The notes beneath the pieces were generated by a model that was not told where the DNA came from, did no database searches, and saw only the letters and a program-made list of their open reading frames with translations. This document shows positions 2-6,184 of a stretch of DNA of 13,455 nt, piece by piece. Both the position numbers and the translations under genes were made by a program. Positions within the stretch are counted from its first letter, which is position 1. Each line of letters begins with the position of its first letter. This stretch comes from a virus. The stretch lies in UHGV virus genome UHGV-0114979; one strand, given 5' to 3'.

Positions 2-1321
2 ACGCTTGGTCTGATCCGCGAAAACAATGAACTGGCTCGCTCAGGTGCAAATAACATTGGTCTGACCGCGTTGCGTGGTCTGGCTGGAGTTGCTGATATT
101 TACAATCAGGAACAGCAACAGAAAGCTATTAGTGCGTTCAATAAGGTTCACGCTGATGCATGGGCTTCTGGTGATCCATCGGGACTATTTAAGTTTGCCC
201 AGGAAAATCCAGCGTTTGTTGCACAGGCACAACAGGCGTTTTCCGGTCTTAATGATCAGCAACGCAACGATATGGGCGATTTAGCCATGAGGGCTAACGT
301 CGCTCTTTCTCAGGGACCGGAAGCCTACAGTAAATTCATTACTGACAACAAGGACAGGTTAAATCGCGTGGGGGCGAATGCTGACTGGATGATTCAGACA
401 GGTATCCAGAATCCAGAGCAGCTATCACACATGTTGACTACTATGTCTCTCGGTGCGCTTGGACCAGAAAAGGCGTTTGCTGTTCAGGACAAGATGGCTG
501 GTCGTGAAATTGACCGAGGCAAACTTGCAGAGACAATCCGCAGCAATCAGGCTGGAGAAGCACTTCAGGCGAGAGGGCAAAACCTTTCCTATCAGTCAGC
601 AATGACTGGACACAATATCGCAGCACAACGCTTGGCTCTGGATCAGCAAGAGTTCGGGTTTAAGATGCAGCAAGCACAGGAAAAGGCTCAGCAGTTGATT
701 AGCGAAGCACCTAAGCTGTCAGTAAACATGGAAAAAGGCATCGAGACGGCTGTAAACAATGCTACAGCATCATCAAACTCAGCCAATTCCATGAGTGCGC
801 TTGCTCAACAGTTCAGAGCAGAAAAACCAACGACAGGTTTGTTCGGTAACGCACAGAACATGTTCGCAAAACTTACCGGAAGCGATACAACATTGCGTGA
901 TTTGCGCATCCGCCAAAATGCCCTTGTTAACAGTCAGGTTCTTAAATTCCTACCTCCCGGCCCCGCAACGGATAAAGACGTTGAGATCGTTCGGCAGGGT
1001 GCACCAACTGACATGGATAACCCTGAGACGGTCGCAAGATGGCTTGATGCGATGGCAAACCTTGAGCGACGAAACGCGCAGTTTAATGAGTTTAAAGCCG
1101 AGTGGATGAGCGCGAATGGCAATCCAGGACAATCGCGTAATGGCGGTCAGATATTGGGGTTGGATGTTAAAAAAGGTGAATCATTGGGGAGTGCCGTTAA
1201 GCGGTATATGTCAATGAATACTGACGCAGCGCCAGCACAAGATTCGACACCTTCAGGAGAACCACGGAATCAGGTTGGATCATATACCTCAAAATCAGGC
1301 ATTCAATTTACGGTGGAATGA
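2..1321 (+). CDS. DNA-transfer (ejection) protein, P22 gp20-like; 5' end lies upstream of the window
   Basis: The reading frame is open from nt 2 to the TGA at 1319-1321; the ORF track's 71..1321 is only the first in-window start. The protein is Q/A/N-rich and non-hydrophobic. It sits directly upstream of the gp16-like gene with an ATGA stop/start overlap at 1318-1321. Assigned from gene order and size (about 440 codons in window against a recalled 471 aa for P22 gp20), not residue-level alignment. Confidence 0.7.
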
Positions 1322-3150
1322 TGAAAGTAACTGCAAACGGTAAGACATTTACCTTTCCTGATGGTACGAGCACCGAAGATATTGGCACCGCCATTGATGA
1401 GTATTTTGCTGGTCAGGCTGTTCAGCAACAAACAGTTAATCAGGCCAATAATACACCAACACGGGAAGAACCATCATTGATGCAACAAGCTGGTGATTGG
1501 CTCACAGGTGGTCAAAGTGCAGGGCAAATTGCAGAACAGGCTGGTCGTGGTCTGGTAAACATACCATTTGACGTATTGCAGGGTGGCGCAAGTCTGATTA
1601 ATGCAATCAGCCAGGGGCTTGGCGGCCCCAAGGTTTTGGATGATGTTTATCGCCCTGTCGAGCGACCAACAGACCCTTATGCGCAAGCTGGAGAAACAAT
1701 TGGCGGGTATTTAGTTCCAGGAGTTGGAACGGCAGGAAGCATGGCTATTGGATCACTGGCAGAGGCCGCAAATCAGAAAGGCGATTTCGCACAAAATGCA
1801 GCTAAAAATGCAGGAGTTAACCTTGCCGCTCAGGGGGTTCTTTCCGCAGCAGCAAAGGGAATAGGGCGTGGAATTACTGCTGTTCGTGGCGAAATATCAC
1901 CAGCAGATCAGCAATTGCTCAAGCGTGCCGCTGCGGCAGATGTACCAGTTATGACATCGGATGTAGTTCCTCCAAAAACAAAACTTGGCAATCAACTGCA
2001 GGGTTACTCAGAAGGAGTCATAGCTGGTACTGGACCAATGAGAGCCGCACAGCAGGATGCCAGAACCAAGCTTGTTAATCGCTTCACCGAAAAATACGGC
2101 GACTACGATCCATCTGTAGTCGTTGATAGTCTAAAGTCAGGCGTTGCAAGGGAAAAATCGTTAGCCAAGTCAAAACTAAACAGCCTGTCAGGAAGAATGG
2201 TTGGAAAGCCAGTTGATACAAGTGGCGCCATAAGAGCTATCGACGGAGCAGTAAACGAACTTGGGAAACTTAAAGGTGTTTCTGACACCCAGACCATTTC
2301 TGCGCTTAATGATTATAAGAATGCCATTCAGGAGATAACAAATGGAGATGATGCCTTTGAGTTACTTGATAAGCTGAGAACTCAGTTCCGCATTGACGTA
2401 AAAGGCGATCGTACAGTTCTGCCATCAATGTCGCAAACAATGGTCGACAGGGTCTATAACTCGCTAACCAATAGCCTTAGTAAATCTATAGCGAAAGGAC
2501 TTAGCTCAAAAGATGCTTCAGCATGGAGAGCGGGAAAAGCTGATTATGCAAAAATGGCAACACATGCAACTCAAACGCGCCTTAAAAACGTTCTAAACAA
2601 AGGAGATTTAACTCCCGAGGCTGTAAATACCATTGTGTATGGACAATATGGGTCAGATATAGCTCGATTGTACGGGAAACTCGATCAAAAAGGTAAAGAC
2701 ATGCTAAGGGCGGCATATATCAGCAAAATAGCTGACAAGGTAGGTGACAGCCCTCAGAAAATGATGACCGAGCTTGGCAAGCTGCAAAAACAAGCAAATG
2801 GTCAGGTGTTTAAAACTGTATTTGGTGGGAAGAACGGAAAAGAGATAGAGGGGATGTTATCTATTCTCGATGCTACCAAAAGAGCATCTGAGGCTAATGT
2901 TGTGACGAAGACTGGCATGACACTCGCGCCTTTGGTAAGGGTTATTGGTAACCTAAAAACCGGAGGCGCGCTATTGGCTGGGGAAACAGGGATTGGCCTT
3001 ATGTCGAGGGTTTATGAAAGCCCTATGGCCAGGAATGCGCTCTTACGTCTGGCAAACACCAAAGCAGGAACGCCAGCCTATGAAAGAGCATTAAGTAACG
3101 CTGCAAATGCCATCAGACCGCTGCTTGCCACTGAGGCAACACAGCAGTGA
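1318..3150 (+). CDS. DNA-transfer (ejection) protein, P22 gp16-like
   Basis: 610-codon ORF with tandem ATG ATG at 1318-1323, so the second ATG would give 609 aa, the length I recall for P22 gp16. Gly/Ala-rich, consistent with ejection proteins. It is the last gene of the late block before the immunity/cargo region, as in P22 (…7-20-16-sieA-mnt-arc-ant-9). Confidence 0.75.
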
Positions 3151-3167
3151 CTAAATGCCATGGATGG

Positions 3168-3356
3168 TTATTTCCCTAGCACATGAAACAATGTTTGCTT
3201 TAATTCCACCCATACAATTATGACCACTATAGACAGACAAAAGAAACTGAATGCATTGGCATCACGATCGAAACCTTCTCCGGCACTAAATCCGTAAAAG
3301 GTCATAAAAAATATAAAAATTGCGCACTTTGCAACGTTTACAAATTTTTTCTTCAC
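3168..3356 (-). CDS. Small (62-aa) membrane peptide with two hydrophobic helices, unknown function
   Basis: On the minus strand a near-consensus Shine-Dalgarno AAGGAGG (revcomp of 3362-3368) lies 5 nt upstream of a GTG start at 3356-3354. Translation is MKKKFVNVAKCAIFIFFMTFYGFSAGEGFDRDANAFSFFCLSIVVIIVWVELKQTLFHVLGK: a Lys-rich N-terminus and two hydrophobic segments separated by a charged turn. The ORF track's 87-aa version (start 3431) has no RBS and begins inside an operator repeat. Divergent from the 328-aa gene. Confidence 0.4.
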   Translation of the reverse strand: MKKKFVNVAKCAIFIFFMTFYGFSAGEGFDRDANAFSFFCLSIVVIIVWVELKQTLFHVLGK

Positions 3357-3419
3357 ACCAACCTCCTTAGTTTTGCGCAGGATACCAGATGATAATGTGT
3401 AGTTGGAGTAGCGCGGTTG

Positions 3420-3511
3420 TAATGCAAGCATTTTGTTTTAGTTTTATGCTTGCTTGTATGTGTGTACAGTGTATATAATGCAAGCATACATCACAACAAA
3501 GGTGCTTGCAT
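3420..3511. promoter_or_regulatory. Promoter for the 328-aa gene, embedded in four operator-like palindromic sites (TAATGCAAGCAT)
   Basis: Sigma70-like promoter on the + strand: -35 TTGCTT (3450-3455), 18-bp spacer, -10 TATAAT (3474-3479). Copies of the 12-mer TAATGCAAGCAT sit at 3420-3431 (+) and 3476-3487 (+, overlapping the -10 and start site). A reverse-oriented copy with one mismatch is at 3500-3511 (GTGCTTGCATTA), and a weaker reverse copy ATGCTTGCTT at 3446-3455 overlaps the -35. Each core is a near-palindrome, ATGC-NN-GCAT. Confidence 0.5.
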
Positions 3512-3512
3512 T

Positions 3513-4499
3513 ATGACTGAAAAGAAAAGTGGCGAAGGGAAAGCTAAGGGCGGGATCGCTCGCGCAAAGTCGCTGACTAAAGAGCAGCGTTCTGAAATAG
3601 CAAAGAAAGCAGCGGCAAAACGATGGGAAGGTAAGCCACTAAGAGCGATCAGAAAGGGTAACTTCATTGATGATTTCGGCATTGATGCAGAATGTTACGT
3701 ACTTGATGATAATGATAAAACGGTTGTAGTTAGTAAAACTGGTCTGGCTAAATTACTAGGAATCGGTGAGCATGGTAGGGATGTAGACCGTTTTCTAAAT
3801 ACGAATTATATGGCTGATTTTGTTGATCCATTTCTGCTAGAAAAATTCAAAAAACCTCTTATTTTTCAATGGAGAAGTCCGGTCCCAAACTCAGCCCCAA
3901 ATCCACTCGCTGATGAGGCTCACGGTTACGATATTGCCCTTATCGGTGATATAGCCACAGCAATGATTAATGCCGATCGAGCTGGCGCTCTACCGCCTTC
4001 AAGATCAAAATCTGCCAGCCTTGCCCAAAGACTTGTTACCGCATCAATGAAAGCAGGGCTTAAAGGACTTGGTTATGCTATTGCAGGATATCGACCTGAA
4101 GTACAGGAGGTTATTGATTCCTTCAAGGCCTTTGTTCGTGAAGAGGCGAGGCAGTATGAAAAAGAATTTCCAGATGAGCTATATGAGGAGTGGTATCGAC
4201 TGTACGGCCTGAACAGGCCAGAGAAGGGACGTCCAATTCGTTTTGGGCAGCTAACCAACATGCAGATATACACTCCGCTAGCAAAGAGTAAAGGTAAAAT
4301 CCTTGAACAGATTCGAGCCAGCCGAGACGAGAACGGAAAACAATCTGATAAGTTGCACCTGTTCCTTTCTGAAATTGGTGTCAAGGCTTTGCGTCAGCAT
4401 ATCGGTAAGCTTCTTGGTGTCGCAGCGATGAGCGAGACAAGAGAAGAATACGAAAAAGGAATAGAAAAGGTTTTTGGAAGAATAAAACCAGAAATCTAA
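3513..4499 (+). CDS. Hypothetical 328-aa protein with a basic Lys/Ala-rich N-terminus, occupying the sieA-equivalent cargo slot
   Basis: Long ORF; the ORF track starts at TTG 3450, but ATG 3513 is preferred, with a purine-rich AAAGG 10 nt upstream. The N-terminus is MTEKKSGEGKAKGGIARAKSLTKEQRSEIAKKAAAKRWEGK, a basic segment that looks like a nucleic-acid-binding tail. The rest is hydrophilic with no transmembrane segments and no catalytic motif I can recognise. Followed by a strong bidirectional terminator. Confidence 0.8.
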   Translation: MTEKKSGEGKAKGGIARAKSLTKEQRSEIAKKAAAKRWEGKPLRAIRKGNFIDDFGIDAECYVLDDNDKTVVVSKTGLAKLLGIGEHGRDVDRFLNTNYMADFVDPFLLEKFKKPLIFQWRSPVPNSAPNPLADEAHGYDIALIGDIATAMINADRAGALPPSRSKSASLAQRLVTASMKAGLKGLGYAIAGYRPEVQEVIDSFKAFVREEARQYEKEFPDELYEEWYRLYGLNRPEKGRPIRFGQLTNMQIYTPLAKSKGKILEQIRASRDENGKQSDKLHLFLSEIGVKALRQHIGKLLGVAAMSETREEYEKGIEKVFGRIKPEI

Positions 4500-4501
4500 T
4501 T

Positions 4502-4529
4502 AAAAAACCCACCTTCAGGTGGGTTTTTT
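4502..4529. terminator. Bidirectional Rho-independent terminator shared by the convergent 328-aa gene and mnt
   Basis: AAAAAACCCACC-TTCA-GGTGGGTTTTTT: 7-bp G/C-rich stem (4507-4513 / 4518-4524), 4-nt loop, A-run on the left and T-run on the right. The mnt stop codon (revcomp of 4515-4517) lies in the loop, and the right arm plus T-run encode the Mnt C-terminus …KKPT. Confidence 0.8.
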
Positions 4530-4769
4530 ATCTTCTCCGTACATGCTGCTGAGAGTCTTTAGAAGAGCCTCCCTAAATTTTTCAGATTCTTGTTGAGCAA
4601 AACCTTCTATTGTTCTTGGTGATTTTTCTTCATCAATAGCAGCTTGCAAGATCATAACTATTTCTGAATTTAATGAGCGTCCGTTTTTCGATGCTCTTAT
4701 GGTCAGGTCGCGCTTGAGGCTATCTGGCATTCTTACGCTATATGGGGCTATGTCTCTAACCTTCGTCAT
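4515..4769 (-). CDS. mnt: Mnt-like ribbon-helix-helix repressor (immI region)
   Basis: 84 aa: MTKVRDIAPYSVRMPDSLKRDLTIRASKNGRSLNSEIVMILQAAIDEEK… The N-terminal beta-strand/helix pattern and the NGRS-x-NSE signature match the Arc/Mnt (MetJ-Arc) family. Size matches P22 Mnt (about 82 aa as recalled). Divergent from arc across an operator-rich intergenic region, as in P22 immI. Confidence 0.8.
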   Translation of the reverse strand: MTKVRDIAPYSVRMPDSLKRDLTIRASKNGRSLNSEIVMILQAAIDEEKSPRTIEGFAQQESEKFREALLKTLSSMYGEDKKPT

Positions 4770-4878
4770 ACTTACACCGTGATGATCACATTGATATCAC
4801 AGTGTATTCAAAAAAATTTTGACTTGATATACTCACAGTGATATGTTTGTGATTCACAATAACTCACGTGGTGGCAAT
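4770..4878. promoter_or_regulatory. Divergent mnt/arc-ant promoter-operator region (Pant/Pmnt analogue)
   Basis: 109-bp intergenic between divergent RHH repressor genes. Palindromes: GTGAT-G-ATCAC (4779-4789), TGATATCA (4792-4799), TCAC-A-GTGA (4833-4841), TGTGA-T-TCACA (4848-4858). Candidate rightward promoter: -35 TTGACT (4819-4824), 17-bp spacer, -10 TATGTT (4842-4847). The TCACAGTGA palindrome sits in that spacer and TGTGATTCACA near the start site. I could not place the leftward mnt promoter with confidence. Confidence 0.55.
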
Positions 4879-5031
4879 ATGGAAAAAGAAGTTAGCAGAA
4901 TTTTGGTGAGAATGCCTCAGTCGCTAAAAGATGCGATTACTGGAAAGGCCAAAGAAGAATGCCGGTCGTTTAACTCGGAAGTGATTAAGCGATTGCTGGA
5001 CAGCCTGAAGAGAGAGGGGGTGGTGGTATGA
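4879..5031 (+). CDS. arc: Arc-like ribbon-helix-helix repressor
   Basis: 50 aa from ATG 4879, with GGTGG 4 nt upstream; the ORF track's 4843 start adds 12 residues with no RBS. MEKEVSRILVRMPQSLKDAITGKAKEECRSFNSEVIKRLLDSLKREGVVV resembles P22 Arc (53 aa as recalled), including RS-x-NSE and the C-terminal KKEG-like motif. Confidence 0.8.
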   Translation: MEKEVSRILVRMPQSLKDAITGKAKEECRSFNSEVIKRLLDSLKREGVVV

Positions 5032-5219
5032 AAAACCGCAGATGTTGTTTTTGTGGGTGTAGTAAAGAAACGACTGGCAGGGGCTTTGTTGTGTCAAAAA
5101 ATACCGAAGAAGCAATTTGTGACTCATGCGTTACAGATATTGTTATTTTCATGCATGGCGAGAAGGGGTTAGATGAAAAGCTAGAGAGTATTCCAGTTGA
5201 AGGCGCTGATAAAAGTTGA
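5028..5219 (+). CDS. 63-aa C4 zinc-ribbon protein resembling the ClpX N-terminal zinc-binding domain
   Basis: The start ATG overlaps the arc stop (ATGA at 5028-5031), and a GAGGGGG purine tract lies upstream. MKNRRCCFCGCSKETTGRGFVVSKNTEEAICDSCVTDIVIFM… has C-x-F-C-G … I-C-D-x-C-V with about 21 residues between the Cys pairs, the same pattern as the ClpX zinc-binding domain (…CSFCGKS…ICDECV…). The C-terminal 25 residues are acidic. Confidence 0.6.
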   Translation: MKNRRCCFCGCSKETTGRGFVVSKNTEEAICDSCVTDIVIFMHGEKGLDEKLESIPVEGADKS

Positions 5220-5285
5220 AGCCCCAACTGCTGTAACAGTCAGGGCTTCGGTTGTCGGTAAATCCTTGGAGAAAAACCAACATGA
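5210..5285 (-). ncRNA. Candidate sar-like antisense RNA covering the ant ribosome-binding site and start codon
   Basis: On the minus strand a -10-like TATACT (revcomp of 5288-5293) would start transcription near 5282; the -35 is weak. Transcription would run leftward across the ant SD (GGAG 5268-5271) and ATG (5282-5284) into a hairpin (stem GAAGCCC 5218-5224 / GGGCTTC 5243-5249). On the minus strand the hairpin is followed by AACUUUUAUC. Predicted length is about 70 nt, matching the 68-69 nt I recall for P22 sar, which has the same position and polarity. Confidence 0.3.
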
Positions 5286-6184
5286 ATAGTATAGCAATTT
5301 TAGAAGCAGTGAACACCTCTTACGTACCATTCAACGGTCAGCAAATTATCACCGCCATGGCTGCCGGAGTTGCATATGTTGCGATGAAGCCAATCGTTGA
5401 AAACCTTGGAATGAGCTGGTCAACGCAGCAAACAAAACTCATGAAGCAGATTAGCAAATTCAACTGTGTTCATATGAACATGGTTGCCGCTGATGGGAAG
5501 CTTCGTAAGCTACTCTGCCTTCCTTTGAAGAAGCTAAATGGATGGCTGTTCAGCATCAACCCTGAGAAAGTTCGTGCTGACATCCGCGATAAACTTATTC
5601 AGTACCAGGAAGAATGCTTTACTGTGCTGCATGACTACTGGACGAAGGGAAAGGCAGAAAATGCACGTAAGAAAACATCTGTTGATGACAGGACTCCGCT
5701 TCGTGATGCTGTAAATATGCTAGTCAGCAAAAAGCATCTAATGTACCCAGAAGCTTATGCAATGATTCATCAGCGTTTCAATGTGGAAAGTATTGAAGAG
5801 CTTGATGCATCTCAGATACCGCAAGCAGTAGAGTACATCCACAGGGTAGTGCTTGAAGGTGAGTTCGTCGGCAAACAAGAGAAGAAAACCAACGAGCTTT
5901 CTGCAAAAGAAGCAAACAGCCTTGTATGGTTATGGGATTATGCCAACCGCTCACAGGCATTATTCCGCGAACTGTATCTGGCGCTAAAACAAATTCAATC
6001 GAACTATTCCGGCAGATGCTACGACTATGGCCATGAGTTCTCGTATGTTATCGGAATGGCGAGAGACGTTTTAATCAATCACACACGAGATGTTGATATT
6101 AATGAGCCAGACGGACCAACGAATCTTTCCGCATGGATGAGACTTAAGAATAAAGAATTACCTCCTTCAGTACATAACTACTGA
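5282..6184 (+). CDS. ant: Antirepressor Ant (P22 Ant N-terminal-domain family)
   Basis: 300 aa from ATG 5282, with GGAG 10 nt upstream; the ORF track's TTG 5252 start is rejected. [56 protein letters not shown]… matches the phage antirepressor N-terminal domain family. It lies downstream of arc, as in immI, and the length equals P22 Ant (300 aa as recalled). Confidence 0.85.

What the first reader, a model, noticed from the sequence alone, without database searches (positions are those of the whole stretch)
3420..3511. Four TAATGCAAGCAT-type palindromic operators wrapped around the promoter of the cargo gene
Two exact 12-mers (3420-3431, 3476-3487), a reverse copy with one mismatch (3500-3511) and a weaker reverse copy (3446-3455) bracket the -35, overlap the -10/start site and sit in the leader. 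This is classic tight-repression geometry for a dimeric DNA-binding protein. The repressor is not obvious. It could be the 328-aa protein itself (autoregulation through its basic N-terminus) or a regulator encoded elsewhere in the phage. It implies the cargo gene is conditionally expressed, as expected for a toxic or abortive-infection effector.
Basis: seen in the sequence. Interest (0 to 1): 0.55.

Follow-up and report, generated by a model that had tools for sequence, protein, structure and literature searches.

The report
Conserved four-operator array of P63C gene
Four copies of a 10-base near-palindrome cover the promoter, start site and ribosome-binding region of an uncharacterised phage gene, and the same layout accompanies this gene from Salmonella/E. 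coli phages to transposons in distant bacterial phyla, so the gene's own protein most likely binds them to control itself.

Summary
Four ATGCAAGCAT-type sites lie at 3420-3513 in the order + - + -, with centres 24, 32 and 24 bp apart. No dinucleotide shuffle of the window gives more than two such sites within 100 bp (0 of 1000).

The window is a P22-like immI region. The sites precede a 328-aa P63C-domain gene (3513-4499). S2 holds the -35, S3 abuts a perfect TATAAT and covers the predicted start site, and S4 fills the gap between the Shine-Dalgarno sequence and the ATG.

The same four-site layout, with an almost invariant core TGCAAGCA, precedes P63C genes in 79 of 97 distinct upstream regions. 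These come from several prophage contexts and from IS1-family transposons in many phyla, where the proteins are only 45-50% identical. P63C is the only gene always linked to the sites.

The site sequence follows a 30-aa basic N-terminal motif rather than the rest of the protein. Relatives with the same motif have the same sites, relatives with an altered motif have different repeats, and relatives without the motif have none.

The best reading is negative autoregulation through the N-terminus (confidence 0.6, inferred, no binding data). RNA structure, a distant regulator and transposase sites are disfavoured. A BstA/aba-like self-immunity role is not excluded. Whether the protein is toxic or a defence effector is untested.

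The parts
3420..3431 (+). S1, TAATGCAAGCAT (10-mer core 3422-3431). Centre is about -59.5 from the predicted start site. In transposon relatives its bottom strand (TTGCAT) serves as the -35 of the divergent transposase promoter.
   Evidence: conserved as the first site in 79 of 97 distinct upstream regions; divergent promoter seen in L088-type loci
3446..3457 (-). S2, core ATGCTTGCTT on the top strand (10-mer 3446-3455, 1 mismatch). It contains the -35 hexamer TTGCTT at 3450-3455.
   Evidence: the -35 inside S2 is TTGCAT or TTGCTT in 63 of 77 regions; spacer to the -10 is 17-18 bp
3474..3479 (+). -10 hexamer TATAAT. Its last two bases are the first two bases of the S3 10-mer.
   Evidence: the TAnnAT hexamer fused to S3 is conserved (T 63, A 69, A 65, T 73 of 77). 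The generic promoter scan missed it because the -35 matches only 3 of 6.
3476..3487 (+). S3, TAATGCAAGCAT (core 3478-3487). It covers -8 to +2. The predicted transcription start is A3486.
   Evidence: The start site is inferred from the -10 position and has not been mapped.
3499..3504 (+). Shine-Dalgarno sequence AAGGTG, overlapping the 5' edge of S4.
   Evidence: SD-like GGAG/AAGG/GAGG lies immediately 5' of S4 in most lineages
3502..3513 (-). S4, top strand GTGCTTGCATTA (1 mismatch). It fills the SD-to-ATG spacer and ends on the A of the start codon.
   Evidence: in relatives the S4 10-mer starts 8-11 nt before the ATG
3513..4499 (+). 328-aa P63C-domain protein, the gene controlled by the array and the proposed binder.
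   Evidence: Pfam PF10546 E=9e-14; PHROG 2384, unknown function; annotated 'P63C domain-containing protein' in RefSeq
3537..3626 (+). Codons 9-38, the basic motif GKAKGGIARAKSLTKEQRSEIAKKAAAKRW. This is the proposed DNA-recognition element.
   Evidence: It is the most conserved N-terminal segment. Site sequence follows this motif and not the rest of the protein. The motif also exists as a stand-alone module.
4501..4530 (.). Bidirectional hairpin terminator that closes the cassette (promoter + gene + terminator, a moron-like unit).
3355..3419 (-). Conserved leader with a strong SD (AAGGAGG, 3362-3368) for a leftward gene. It is shared by different leftward ORFs in relatives. No convincing leftward promoter was found, so it may or may not be controlled from S1.
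3168..3356 (-). 62-aa hydrophobic leftward ORF starting at GTG 3356. RefSeq starts it at ATG 3431, inside S1.
   Evidence: PHROG 21338 matches residues 1-62 of 62; the SD lies 5 nt upstream; RefSeq annotation

Best explanation
The four sites are operators of a self-contained, autoregulated gene cassette.

**Shown**
- The array sits on a sigma-70-type promoter: -35 inside S2, TATAAT fused to S3, predicted +1 inside S3, and S4 between the SD and the ATG.
- The array is under purifying selection.
- It is inherited together with the P63C gene wherever that gene goes: P22-like immI, the slot downstream of cI, next to tRNA genes, and inside IS1-family transposons in many phyla.

**Inferred**
- The P63C protein binds the sites through its ~30-aa basic N-terminal motif (GG-x-ARA-x2-L[ST]-x-E-x-R-x-EIA-x-KAA-x2-RW).
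- Probably one motif, or a pair of motifs, binds each polar 10-mer. The convergent pairs S1/S2 and S3/S4 (24 bp apart) would be bridged by a dimeric or tetrameric body. S2 and S3 lie three helical turns apart on the same face of the DNA.
- Occupancy of S2 and S3 would exclude RNA polymerase, and S4 would add a cooperative partner or roadblock. The result would be negative feedback that holds the protein at a low, constant level.
- In the transposon relatives the same array also covers the -35 (S1) of a divergent, apparently leaderless transposase gene.
For: 1. **Non-random cluster.** 0 of 1000 shuffles reach the observed clustering.
2. **Specific to this gene.** The exact 8-mer TGCAAGCA/TGCTTGCA occurs 155 times within -130..+5 of the gene start, against 8 times in 365 kb of flanking DNA in 58 distinct viral loci. 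A complete related phage (45.9 kb) has no further copy.
3. **Conserved architecture.** 79 of 97 distinct upstream regions have the + - + - order. Spacings are 22-25, 30-33 and 22-25 bp, and S4 starts 8-11 nt before the ATG. Core positions 3-9 are nearly invariant, while the spacers are unrelated.
4. **Promoter elements fused to the sites.**
5. **Selection among close relatives.** Variable columns are 2 of 40 inside sites and 23 of 85 outside, p=0.0036.
6. **Linkage.** P63C is the only gene always linked to the sites. The cassette is present in Acidobacteriota, Myxococcota, Proteobacteria, Firmicutes and others, with proteins 45-50% identical.
7. **Natural 'swap' experiments.**
   - ST104 ORF23 is 33% identical overall but keeps the N-motif, and it has the same four sites.
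   - Lodos, Barco and SEN34 also keep the motif and have GCAAGCA-type sites.
   - 933W L0095 has an altered motif (ESSRKAVAAKK) and ACGTGCA repeats instead.
   - vB_PL1 has an altered motif and GTTAGATAT repeats.
   - An acidobacterial subfamily has near-identical bodies but an altered motif, and TATACTTGC-type repeats.
   - Homologues lacking the motif (Si3, Midgardsormr38, L204, L205, and 5 genomic loci) have no sites.
8. **Other repressors in the window.** The Mnt/Arc operators use an unrelated motif.
Against: - There is no binding, footprint, start-site or reporter data. Everything about the binder is inference.
- The N-terminal motif has no recognised DNA-binding fold. AF2 gives two low-confidence helices (pLDDT 54-64). 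No PDB or Pfam relative was found.
- From my own knowledge, the motif resembles KGG-type repeats of hydrophilic stress proteins, which are not known to bind DNA.
- The protein/operator correlation rests on about a dozen lineages that are not phylogenetically independent.
- Two members carry the motif with variant sites (L086 and L135).
- Two stand-alone motif proteins that I examined have no clear ATGCAAGCAT sites upstream.
- In the transposon relatives, a small co-encoded protein with the same motif, or the transposase HTH, could be the binder.
- The -35 is weak (3 of 6), so some sites (S1, S2) could act positively.
Confidence: 0.6

Rival explanations
1. aba-like self-recognition element. The array is mainly a cognate DNA 'antidote' or decoy that the P63C protein recognises on its own replicon, as the 63-bp aba element does for the prophage defence protein BstA. 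Promoter control would be secondary. This is compatible with the protein binding the sites.
For: - In BstA, the cognate DNA element spans -29 to +34 of its own gene, and each BstA variant has its own aba (PMC8585504).
- P63C relatives occupy the same slot immediately downstream of the prophage repressor (ST104; L041, L071, L009).
- Subfamilies have their own repeat sequences.
- The array ends on the start codon.
Against: - P63C is not a BstA homologue (hhalign probability 2%).
- No defence phenotype is known, and PADLOC gives no hit.
- The tight fusion of the sites to -35, -10, +1 and SD in every lineage is what a transcriptional operator needs, not what a decoy needs.
- The cassette also lives in transposons on chromosomes, where a copy-number signal is less obvious.
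Confidence: 0.15
2. The sites are operators for a regulator encoded elsewhere: a phage repressor such as C2/Cro, Mnt or Arc, or a host transcription factor.
For: - The window carries two ribbon-helix-helix repressor genes, Mnt-like at 4515-4769 and Arc at 4879-5031.
- A dedicated repressor can have a single target.
Against: - The Mnt/Arc operators here are CACAnTGATATCACAGTG-type.
- No other copy of the motif exists in a complete related phage.
- No gene other than P63C is linked across contexts.
- The same core sequence is kept in phyla that share no such regulator.
- Site sequence changes when the P63C N-terminus changes.
Confidence: 0.08
3. RNA-level element. The inverted repeats form hairpins (S1:S2 and S3:S4, or a long S1:S4/S2:S3 stem) that hide the SD and AUG. 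In P22-like phages this would silence translation of the gene on late-operon read-through transcripts.
For: - RNA 3410-3530 folds to -46.4 kcal/mol, z = -5.1, and pairs the SD and AUG.
- There is a perfect 12-bp repeat 3475-3486/3503-3514.
- Late transcription crossing immI to reach gene 9 is established for P22 (my own knowledge).
Against: - In most contexts a terminator lies immediately upstream of S1, so S1 and S2 are not transcribed.
- The conserved -10 puts +1 inside S3, so the gene's own transcript lacks the 5' arm. That leader is unstructured (z = +1.27).
- Core changes are not compensated: 12 of 13 (S3/S4) and 7 of 9 (S1/S2) break the pair.
- There is no Rfam match.
- Each arm is itself a near-palindrome, which a hairpin does not need.
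Confidence: 0.05
4. Transposition or recombination sites: binding sites for the IS1-like transposase, or ends of a mobile element.
For: In many distant bacteria the cassette lies inside an IS1-family element, next to the transposase gene.
Against: - The real element ends are different sequences (GGTAGTGnnTCAGTTTGAA), flanked by 8-bp target duplications.
- The four sites are internal.
- They persist in phages that have no transposase.
- Loci with an unrelated IS5/SWIM-type transposase keep the same sites.
Confidence: 0.03

Closest known systems
Phage repressor-operator autoregulation (lambda cI at OR/PRM; P22 Mnt at Omnt and Arc at Oarc in the neighbouring immI genes)
   Same: Multiple short dyad-like sites overlap the -35, -10 and +1 of the promoter of the regulator's own gene. 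Spacing between sites suggests cooperative binding. The cassette lies in a prophage immunity or moron region.
   Different: - The proposed binder is not an HTH or ribbon-helix-helix protein, and no known DNA-binding fold was detected.
- The sites are 10-bp polar pseudo-palindromes arranged as two convergent pairs (24/32/24 bp), and the fourth lies on the SD-ATG spacer.
- The operator core is conserved across phyla. From my own knowledge, that is unusual for phage operators.
- Binding has not been shown.
BstA/aba prophage defence with cognate self-immunity DNA (Owen et al. 2021, PMC8585504)
   Same: A prophage accessory protein of about 300 aa with a putative DNA-binding N-terminal part, encoded downstream of the repressor in relatives. 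A cognate short DNA element overlaps the 5' end of its own gene. Variants have their own element.
   Different: - There is no sequence homology.
- aba has terminal direct CCCGCC repeats and extends 34 bp into the ORF. Here, four inverted sites lie wholly upstream and are fused to promoter elements.
- No defence phenotype is known for P63C.
IS1 InsA repression of the transposase promoter
   Same: In the transposon relatives, a small array of protein-binding sites covers the transposase promoter, and a co-encoded basic protein is the likely repressor.
   Different: From my own knowledge, InsA binds the terminal inverted repeats through a zinc-finger/HTH domain. Here the sites are internal, unrelated to the ends, and linked to a passenger gene rather than to the transposase.
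Pfam P63C domain proteins (PF10546)
   Same: The 328-aa protein is a member.
   Different: The family has no described function, operator or regulation. The N-terminal motif and the site array are not part of the Pfam definition.

Membership tests
Autoregulatory operator array on a sigma-70 promoter | Repeated, dyad-related sites clustered beyond chance | tested here: met
   4 sites in 92 bp; 0 of 1000 shuffles give more than 2 per 100 bp
Autoregulatory operator array on a sigma-70 promoter | Sites overlap the -35, -10, +1 or leader of the regulated gene | tested here: met
   By sequence only: TTGCTT inside S2, TATAAT fused to S3, S4 between the SD and the ATG. The same holds in 77 regions. 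The start site has not been mapped.
Autoregulatory operator array on a sigma-70 promoter | Sites conserved more strongly than the surrounding non-coding DNA | tested here: met
   Core nearly invariant in 77-79 regions with unrelated spacers; 2/40 against 23/85 variable columns among close relatives
Autoregulatory operator array on a sigma-70 promoter | The regulated gene's product is the binder | tested here: inconclusive
   Strict linkage across contexts and phyla, and co-variation of site sequence with the N-terminal motif.
Autoregulatory operator array on a sigma-70 promoter | Binding lowers transcription | not testable with these tools
   Needs a reporter fusion or in vitro transcription
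P22 immI Mnt/Arc operators | Operator of the local ribbon-helix-helix repressors, located between mnt and arc | tested here: not met
   The local operators at 4785-4853 are CACAnTGATATCACAGTG-type. ATGCAAGCAT is absent there.
BstA/aba self-immunity system | Protein homologous to BstA (KilA-N-like N-terminus plus BstA C-terminus) | tested here: not met
   hhalign probability 2%; BLASTP E=0.036 over a 77-residue alignment
BstA/aba self-immunity system | Cognate DNA element at the 5' end of the gene that neutralises the protein | not testable with these tools
   The geometry is similar (the array ends on the ATG). Function is unknown.
Structured RNA leader (riboswitch, attenuator, translational hairpin) | Transcribed, with pairing maintained by compensatory changes | tested here: not met
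   Upstream terminators and a +1 inside S3; 12/13 and 7/9 core changes break pairs; no Rfam hit; own leader z = +1.27
IS1-family terminal inverted repeats | Located at the element termini next to target-site duplications | tested here: not met
   The termini are GGTAGTGnnTCAGTTTGAA with 8-bp duplications. S1-S4 are internal.
Pfam P63C (PF10546) | Significant match to the family HMM above the gathering score | tested here: met
   52.3 bits against a cut-off of 26.1, residues 205-292
Known anti-phage defence systems (PADLOC-DB 2.0) | Match to a defence-protein HMM | tested here: not met
   No family at E<=0.01 for the 328-aa protein or its neighbours

The most novel reading that the evidence does not exclude
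The ~30-aa GG-ARA...EIAxKAAxxRW segment is a previously unrecognised, minimal sequence-specific DNA-reading module that recognises GCAAGCA-type sites. It would be used by P63C proteins and by hundreds of families of tiny basic proteins. The four-site array would be a portable self-recognition element, acting as both operator and aba-like 'self' mark. It would let a new class of prophage- and transposon-borne effector (defence or addiction) be carried safely between phage moron slots and IS1-family transposons across bacterial phyla.
Probability: 0.2. Interest if true: 0.8.

Novelty: new variant of a known kind. Interest (0 to 1): 0.55.

Why it matters
P63C-domain proteins have no described function (no relevant paper). 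They are common in temperate phages, including Stx phages and P22-like Salmonella and E. coli prophages.

- **A direct experimental handle.** This work points to a defined 94-bp DNA target and a defined 30-aa candidate recognition motif. Natural specificity variants exist (ATGCAAGCAT, ACGTGCA, TATACTTGC) that allow swap experiments.
- **A mobile, self-contained unit.** The gene moves as promoter-operators-gene-terminator between prophage accessory-gene slots and IS1-family transposons across phyla. That behaviour is typical of defence or addiction cargo.
- **Many unannotated small proteins.** If the N-terminal motif does read DNA, hundreds of families of tiny basic proteins would gain a predicted function.

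Tried and rejected
- **Homology to BstA.** Rejected.
- **Generic promoter scan.** It found nothing in 3355-3512 because the -35 matches only 3 of 6. I therefore called the promoter from the conserved TAnnAT hexamer.
- **Leftward promoter using S1 or S3 as its -35.** No acceptable -10 exists in the phage sequences, so I make no claim.
- **First search for inverted repeats flanking the transposase and P63C.** It missed the ends because its search windows were too narrow. The pattern search replaced it.
- **First automated motif-versus-sites table.** It was unreliable because of wrong start-codon choices. The anchor-based count replaced it.
- **Stand-alone motif proteins P0132 and P0163.** Their upstream regions show no clear ATGCAAGCAT array, only loosely similar GCTAAGCA-type repeats. 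This is inconclusive.
- **Search for more ST104-type relatives.** Almost all hits were identical copies.
- **'IS1 family' plus 'passenger gene' literature search.** Nothing relevant.

Full report
**1. What is in the window**

The window is the immI end of a P22-like (Lederbergvirus-type) phage or prophage. The genes and features are:
- ejection-protein genes gp20 (71-1321) and gp16 (1318-3150);
- a short leftward membrane ORF;
- a 328-aa P63C-domain gene (3513-4499);
- a convergent Mnt-like Arc-family gene (4515-4769, minus strand), then arc and a small ORF;
- sar RNA (5214-5281, minus strand, Rfam 94 bits);
- ant (5252-6184), the tailspike gene, an acyltransferase gene and an integrase gene.

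DNA 99.5% identical over 3150-4550 occurs in E. coli prophages. 233 of 5426 complete genomes hold at least part of it, annotated 'P63C domain-containing protein'. An identical protein is recorded from Salmonella enterica.

**2. The observation**

All four sites are present:
- S1, 3420-3431 (+), TAATGCAAGCAT, exact.
- S3, 3476-3487 (+), the same 12-mer, exact.
- S4, 3502-3513 (-), 1 mismatch.
- S2, 3446-3455 (-), 10-mer with 1 mismatch.

The centres are 24, 32 and 24 bp apart. Across the window the motif is not over-represented (5 hits against 2.5 expected), but the clustering is extreme. No dinucleotide shuffle out of 1000 put more than two hits within 100 bp.

Each 10-mer is ATGC-AA-GCAT, a palindrome except for a polar centre. 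The orientation pattern is + - + -.

**3. Position relative to expression signals**

- A perfect TATAAT (3474-3479) shares its last two bases with the S3 10-mer.
- TTGCTT (3450-3455), 18 bp upstream, lies inside S2.
- The predicted start site is A3486, inside S3.
- AAGGTG (3499-3504) is the Shine-Dalgarno sequence.
- S4 fills the spacer to the ATG at 3513.
- A bidirectional terminator (4501-4530) follows the gene.

The unit is therefore promoter + operators + gene + terminator. The start site is inferred and has not been mapped.

**4. Comparative evidence that the array is functional**

I collected 79 viral-contig loci and 80 genome loci that encode relatives.
- In 58 distinct viral upstream regions, the exact 8-mer TGCAAGCA/TGCTTGCA occurs 155 times within -130..+5 of the gene start. 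It occurs only 8 times in 365 kb of flanking DNA.
- A complete related phage, vB_EcoP-611R6 (45.9 kb), has the same four sites and no other copy.
- 79 of 97 distinct upstream regions show the + - + - order. Spacings are 22-25 (mode 24), 30-33 (mode 32) and 22-25 (mode 24) bp, and S4 starts 8-11 nt before the ATG.
- Core positions 3-9 are almost invariant, while the spacers are unrelated.
- The TAnnAT hexamer fused to S3 is conserved (T 63, A 69, A 65, T 73 of 77). The -35 inside S2 is TTGCAT or TTGCTT with a 17-18 bp spacer. An SD precedes S4.
- Among 17 close P22-type variants, 2 of 40 site columns vary against 23 of 85 non-site columns (p=0.0036).

**5. Contexts**

The cassette occurs in several settings:
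- after gp16 in P22-like immI, with different leftward neighbour genes joined exactly at a shared leader and SD;
- immediately downstream of the prophage repressor gene and its terminator (ST104; loci L041, L071 and L009);
- next to tRNA genes, and elsewhere;
- inside IS1-family transposable elements of 2.5-3.8 kb in Acidobacteriota, Myxococcota, Alpha-, Beta- and Gammaproteobacteria, Firmicutes and others.

The transposons have 19-20-bp (occasionally longer) terminal inverted repeats (GGTAGTGnnTCAGTTTGAA) and 8-bp target-site duplications. In them a divergent, apparently leaderless IS1-like transposase gene uses the bottom strand of S1 (TTGCAT) as its -35. A small convergent gene follows P63C.

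No gene other than P63C is common to all contexts.

**6. Who binds**

The window's own Mnt/Arc operators are a different motif. No host factor is shared by all these phyla, so the cassette's own product is the parsimonious binder.

Natural variants point to the N-terminal 30-aa basic motif (residues 9-38, GKAKGGIARAKSLTKEQRSEIAKKAAAKRW).

| Relative | N-terminal motif | Upstream repeats |
|---|---|---|
| ST104 ORF23 (33% identical overall) | kept | same four sites |
| Pseudomonas phage Lodos, Gordonia phage Barco, Salmonella phage SEN34 | kept | GCAAGCA-type sites |
| 933W L0095 | altered (…ESSRKAVAAKK) | three ACGTGCA/TGCACGT repeats; relatives L188 and L190 likewise |
| Burkholderia phage vB_PL1 | altered | GTTAGATAT x2 |
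| Acidobacterial subfamily (bodies nearly identical to main-family members) | altered (KGGEARA…IARAAIQARW) | TATACTTGCTCGGGCA-type repeats |
| Si3, Midgardsormr38, L204, L205, five genomic loci | absent | no array |

In the anchor-based count, 99 of 102 distinct genes with the canonical motif have at least 2 sites (93 have at least 3). None of the 5 without a motif has more than one. These lineages are not independent, so this is supportive and not decisive.

The same motif forms the C-terminus of the small transposon protein (71% identity over 31 aa). It also occurs, often as two tandem copies, in at least 200 clusters of mostly 50-130-aa proteins. It is therefore an autonomous module.

**7. 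Rivals**

*RNA structure.* If the whole region is transcribed, it folds into a long hairpin (-46.4 kcal/mol, z = -5.1) that hides the SD and AUG. This could matter on late read-through transcripts in P22-like phages. However:
- terminators lie just upstream of S1 in most contexts;
- the conserved -10 starts the gene's own mRNA inside S3, and that leader is unstructured (z = +1.27);
- core substitutions are not compensated (12 of 13 and 7 of 9 break pairs);
- Rfam finds nothing there.

*Transposase or recombination sites.* Excluded, because the element ends are different sequences and the sites are internal.

*A BstA/aba-like self-immunity role.* Suggested by the analogous position and by cognate specificity (PMC8585504). 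It is not excluded, but P63C is not a BstA homologue, and the sites are wired to promoter elements.

**8. What the protein is**

This is unknown. The only Pfam hit is the C-terminal P63C domain. There is no defence-system match. There is no PDB relative by sequence or by fold with a medium-confidence model. I found no literature on its function. Only the genomic slots (the sieA position in immI, the rex/bstA position after cI, and transposon cargo) hint at an accessory or defence role.

**9. Verdict**

The most likely mechanism is negative autoregulation by the P63C protein through its N-terminal basic motif.
- Confidence is 0.6 for the full statement.
- Confidence is higher, about 0.8, that the sites are protein-binding operators of this promoter.

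The regulatory logic is classical. The binder, the site architecture and the cross-phylum mobility are new. I therefore rate it a new variant of a known kind, with interest 0.55.

Noticed in passing
L086-L157 (e.g. L092 1536-4060, L097 740-3780, L136 1411-4105): The P63C cassette is cargo of IS1-family transposable elements in many phyla. The layout is terminal repeat GGTAGTGnnTCAGTTTGAA, an IS1-like DDE transposase gene (leftward, apparently leaderless), S1-S4, the P63C gene, a small convergent gene, then the other terminal repeat. 8-bp target-site duplications are present in at least 13 loci.
   Followed up: yes
L088 3469-3741, L094 3452-3700, L097 3462-3755 and about 25 other loci: Small (about 75-95 aa) proteins convergent with P63C end in ...KNPAAVALGRLGGLKGGKARAxxLTxExRxEIAKKAAxARWKK. 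This is the same motif as the P63C N-terminus (71% identity over 31 aa). The motif is widespread as a stand-alone or tandem module in tiny basic proteins.
   Followed up: partly
window 3355-3419 and 3168-3431: The leftward leader and SD (AAGGAGG, 3362-3368) are shared by unrelated leftward ORFs in relatives, with the mosaic joint at the start codon. RefSeq starts the local ORF at ATG 3431, inside S1. GTG 3356 with the SD fits better, and PHROG 21338 matches residues 1-62 of 62.
   Followed up: partly
L053 and six other loci sharing its upstream region: These loci have only one site pair. The sequence between S1 and S3 (including S2 and the -10) is missing, as expected from recombination between the directly repeated S1 and S3.
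   Followed up: no
L202 about 1190-1200: In this ST104-type P63C gene the upstream DNA has been replaced up to a point inside S4. Only GCTTGCATAATG remains.
   Followed up: no
window 3410-3530: If transcribed as a whole, for example by late-operon read-through from gene 16, the array folds into a long hairpin (-46.4 kcal/mol, z = -5.1) that sequesters the SD and AUG. That would keep the gene untranslated on read-through RNA.
   Followed up: partly
L163 1300-1460 (phage 933W, upstream of L0095): This distant paralogue carries its own repeats, ACGTGCA/TGCACGT x3. It is preceded by TTAGTTTTGAGCAGAATACCATGATG, which resembles window 3367-3392. This suggests a shared ancestral module.
   Followed up: partly
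window 4785-4853 and 5214-5281: The Mnt/Arc-type operators (CACAnTGATATCACAGTG repeats) between the mnt-like gene and arc, and a canonical sar antisense RNA (Rfam RF00262, 94 bits), show that the P22 immI circuitry is intact beside the cassette.
   Followed up: yes
window 5028-5219: A 63-aa ORF between arc and ant has two CxxC pairs (CCFCG...CDSC). From my own knowledge this is reminiscent of a ClpX-type zinc ribbon. It matches PHROG 7150, unknown function.
   Followed up: no
L001 (E. coli isolateD, at the tRNA-Arg gene next to yfdC): A prophage remnant has lost everything between the early-left genes and the tail-needle gene. It still keeps the P63C cassette at 99.5% identity.
   Followed up: no
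window 9628-10655: About 1 kb without a sizeable ORF or tRNA lies between the acyltransferase and integrase genes. It is presumably the attP region.
   Followed up: no
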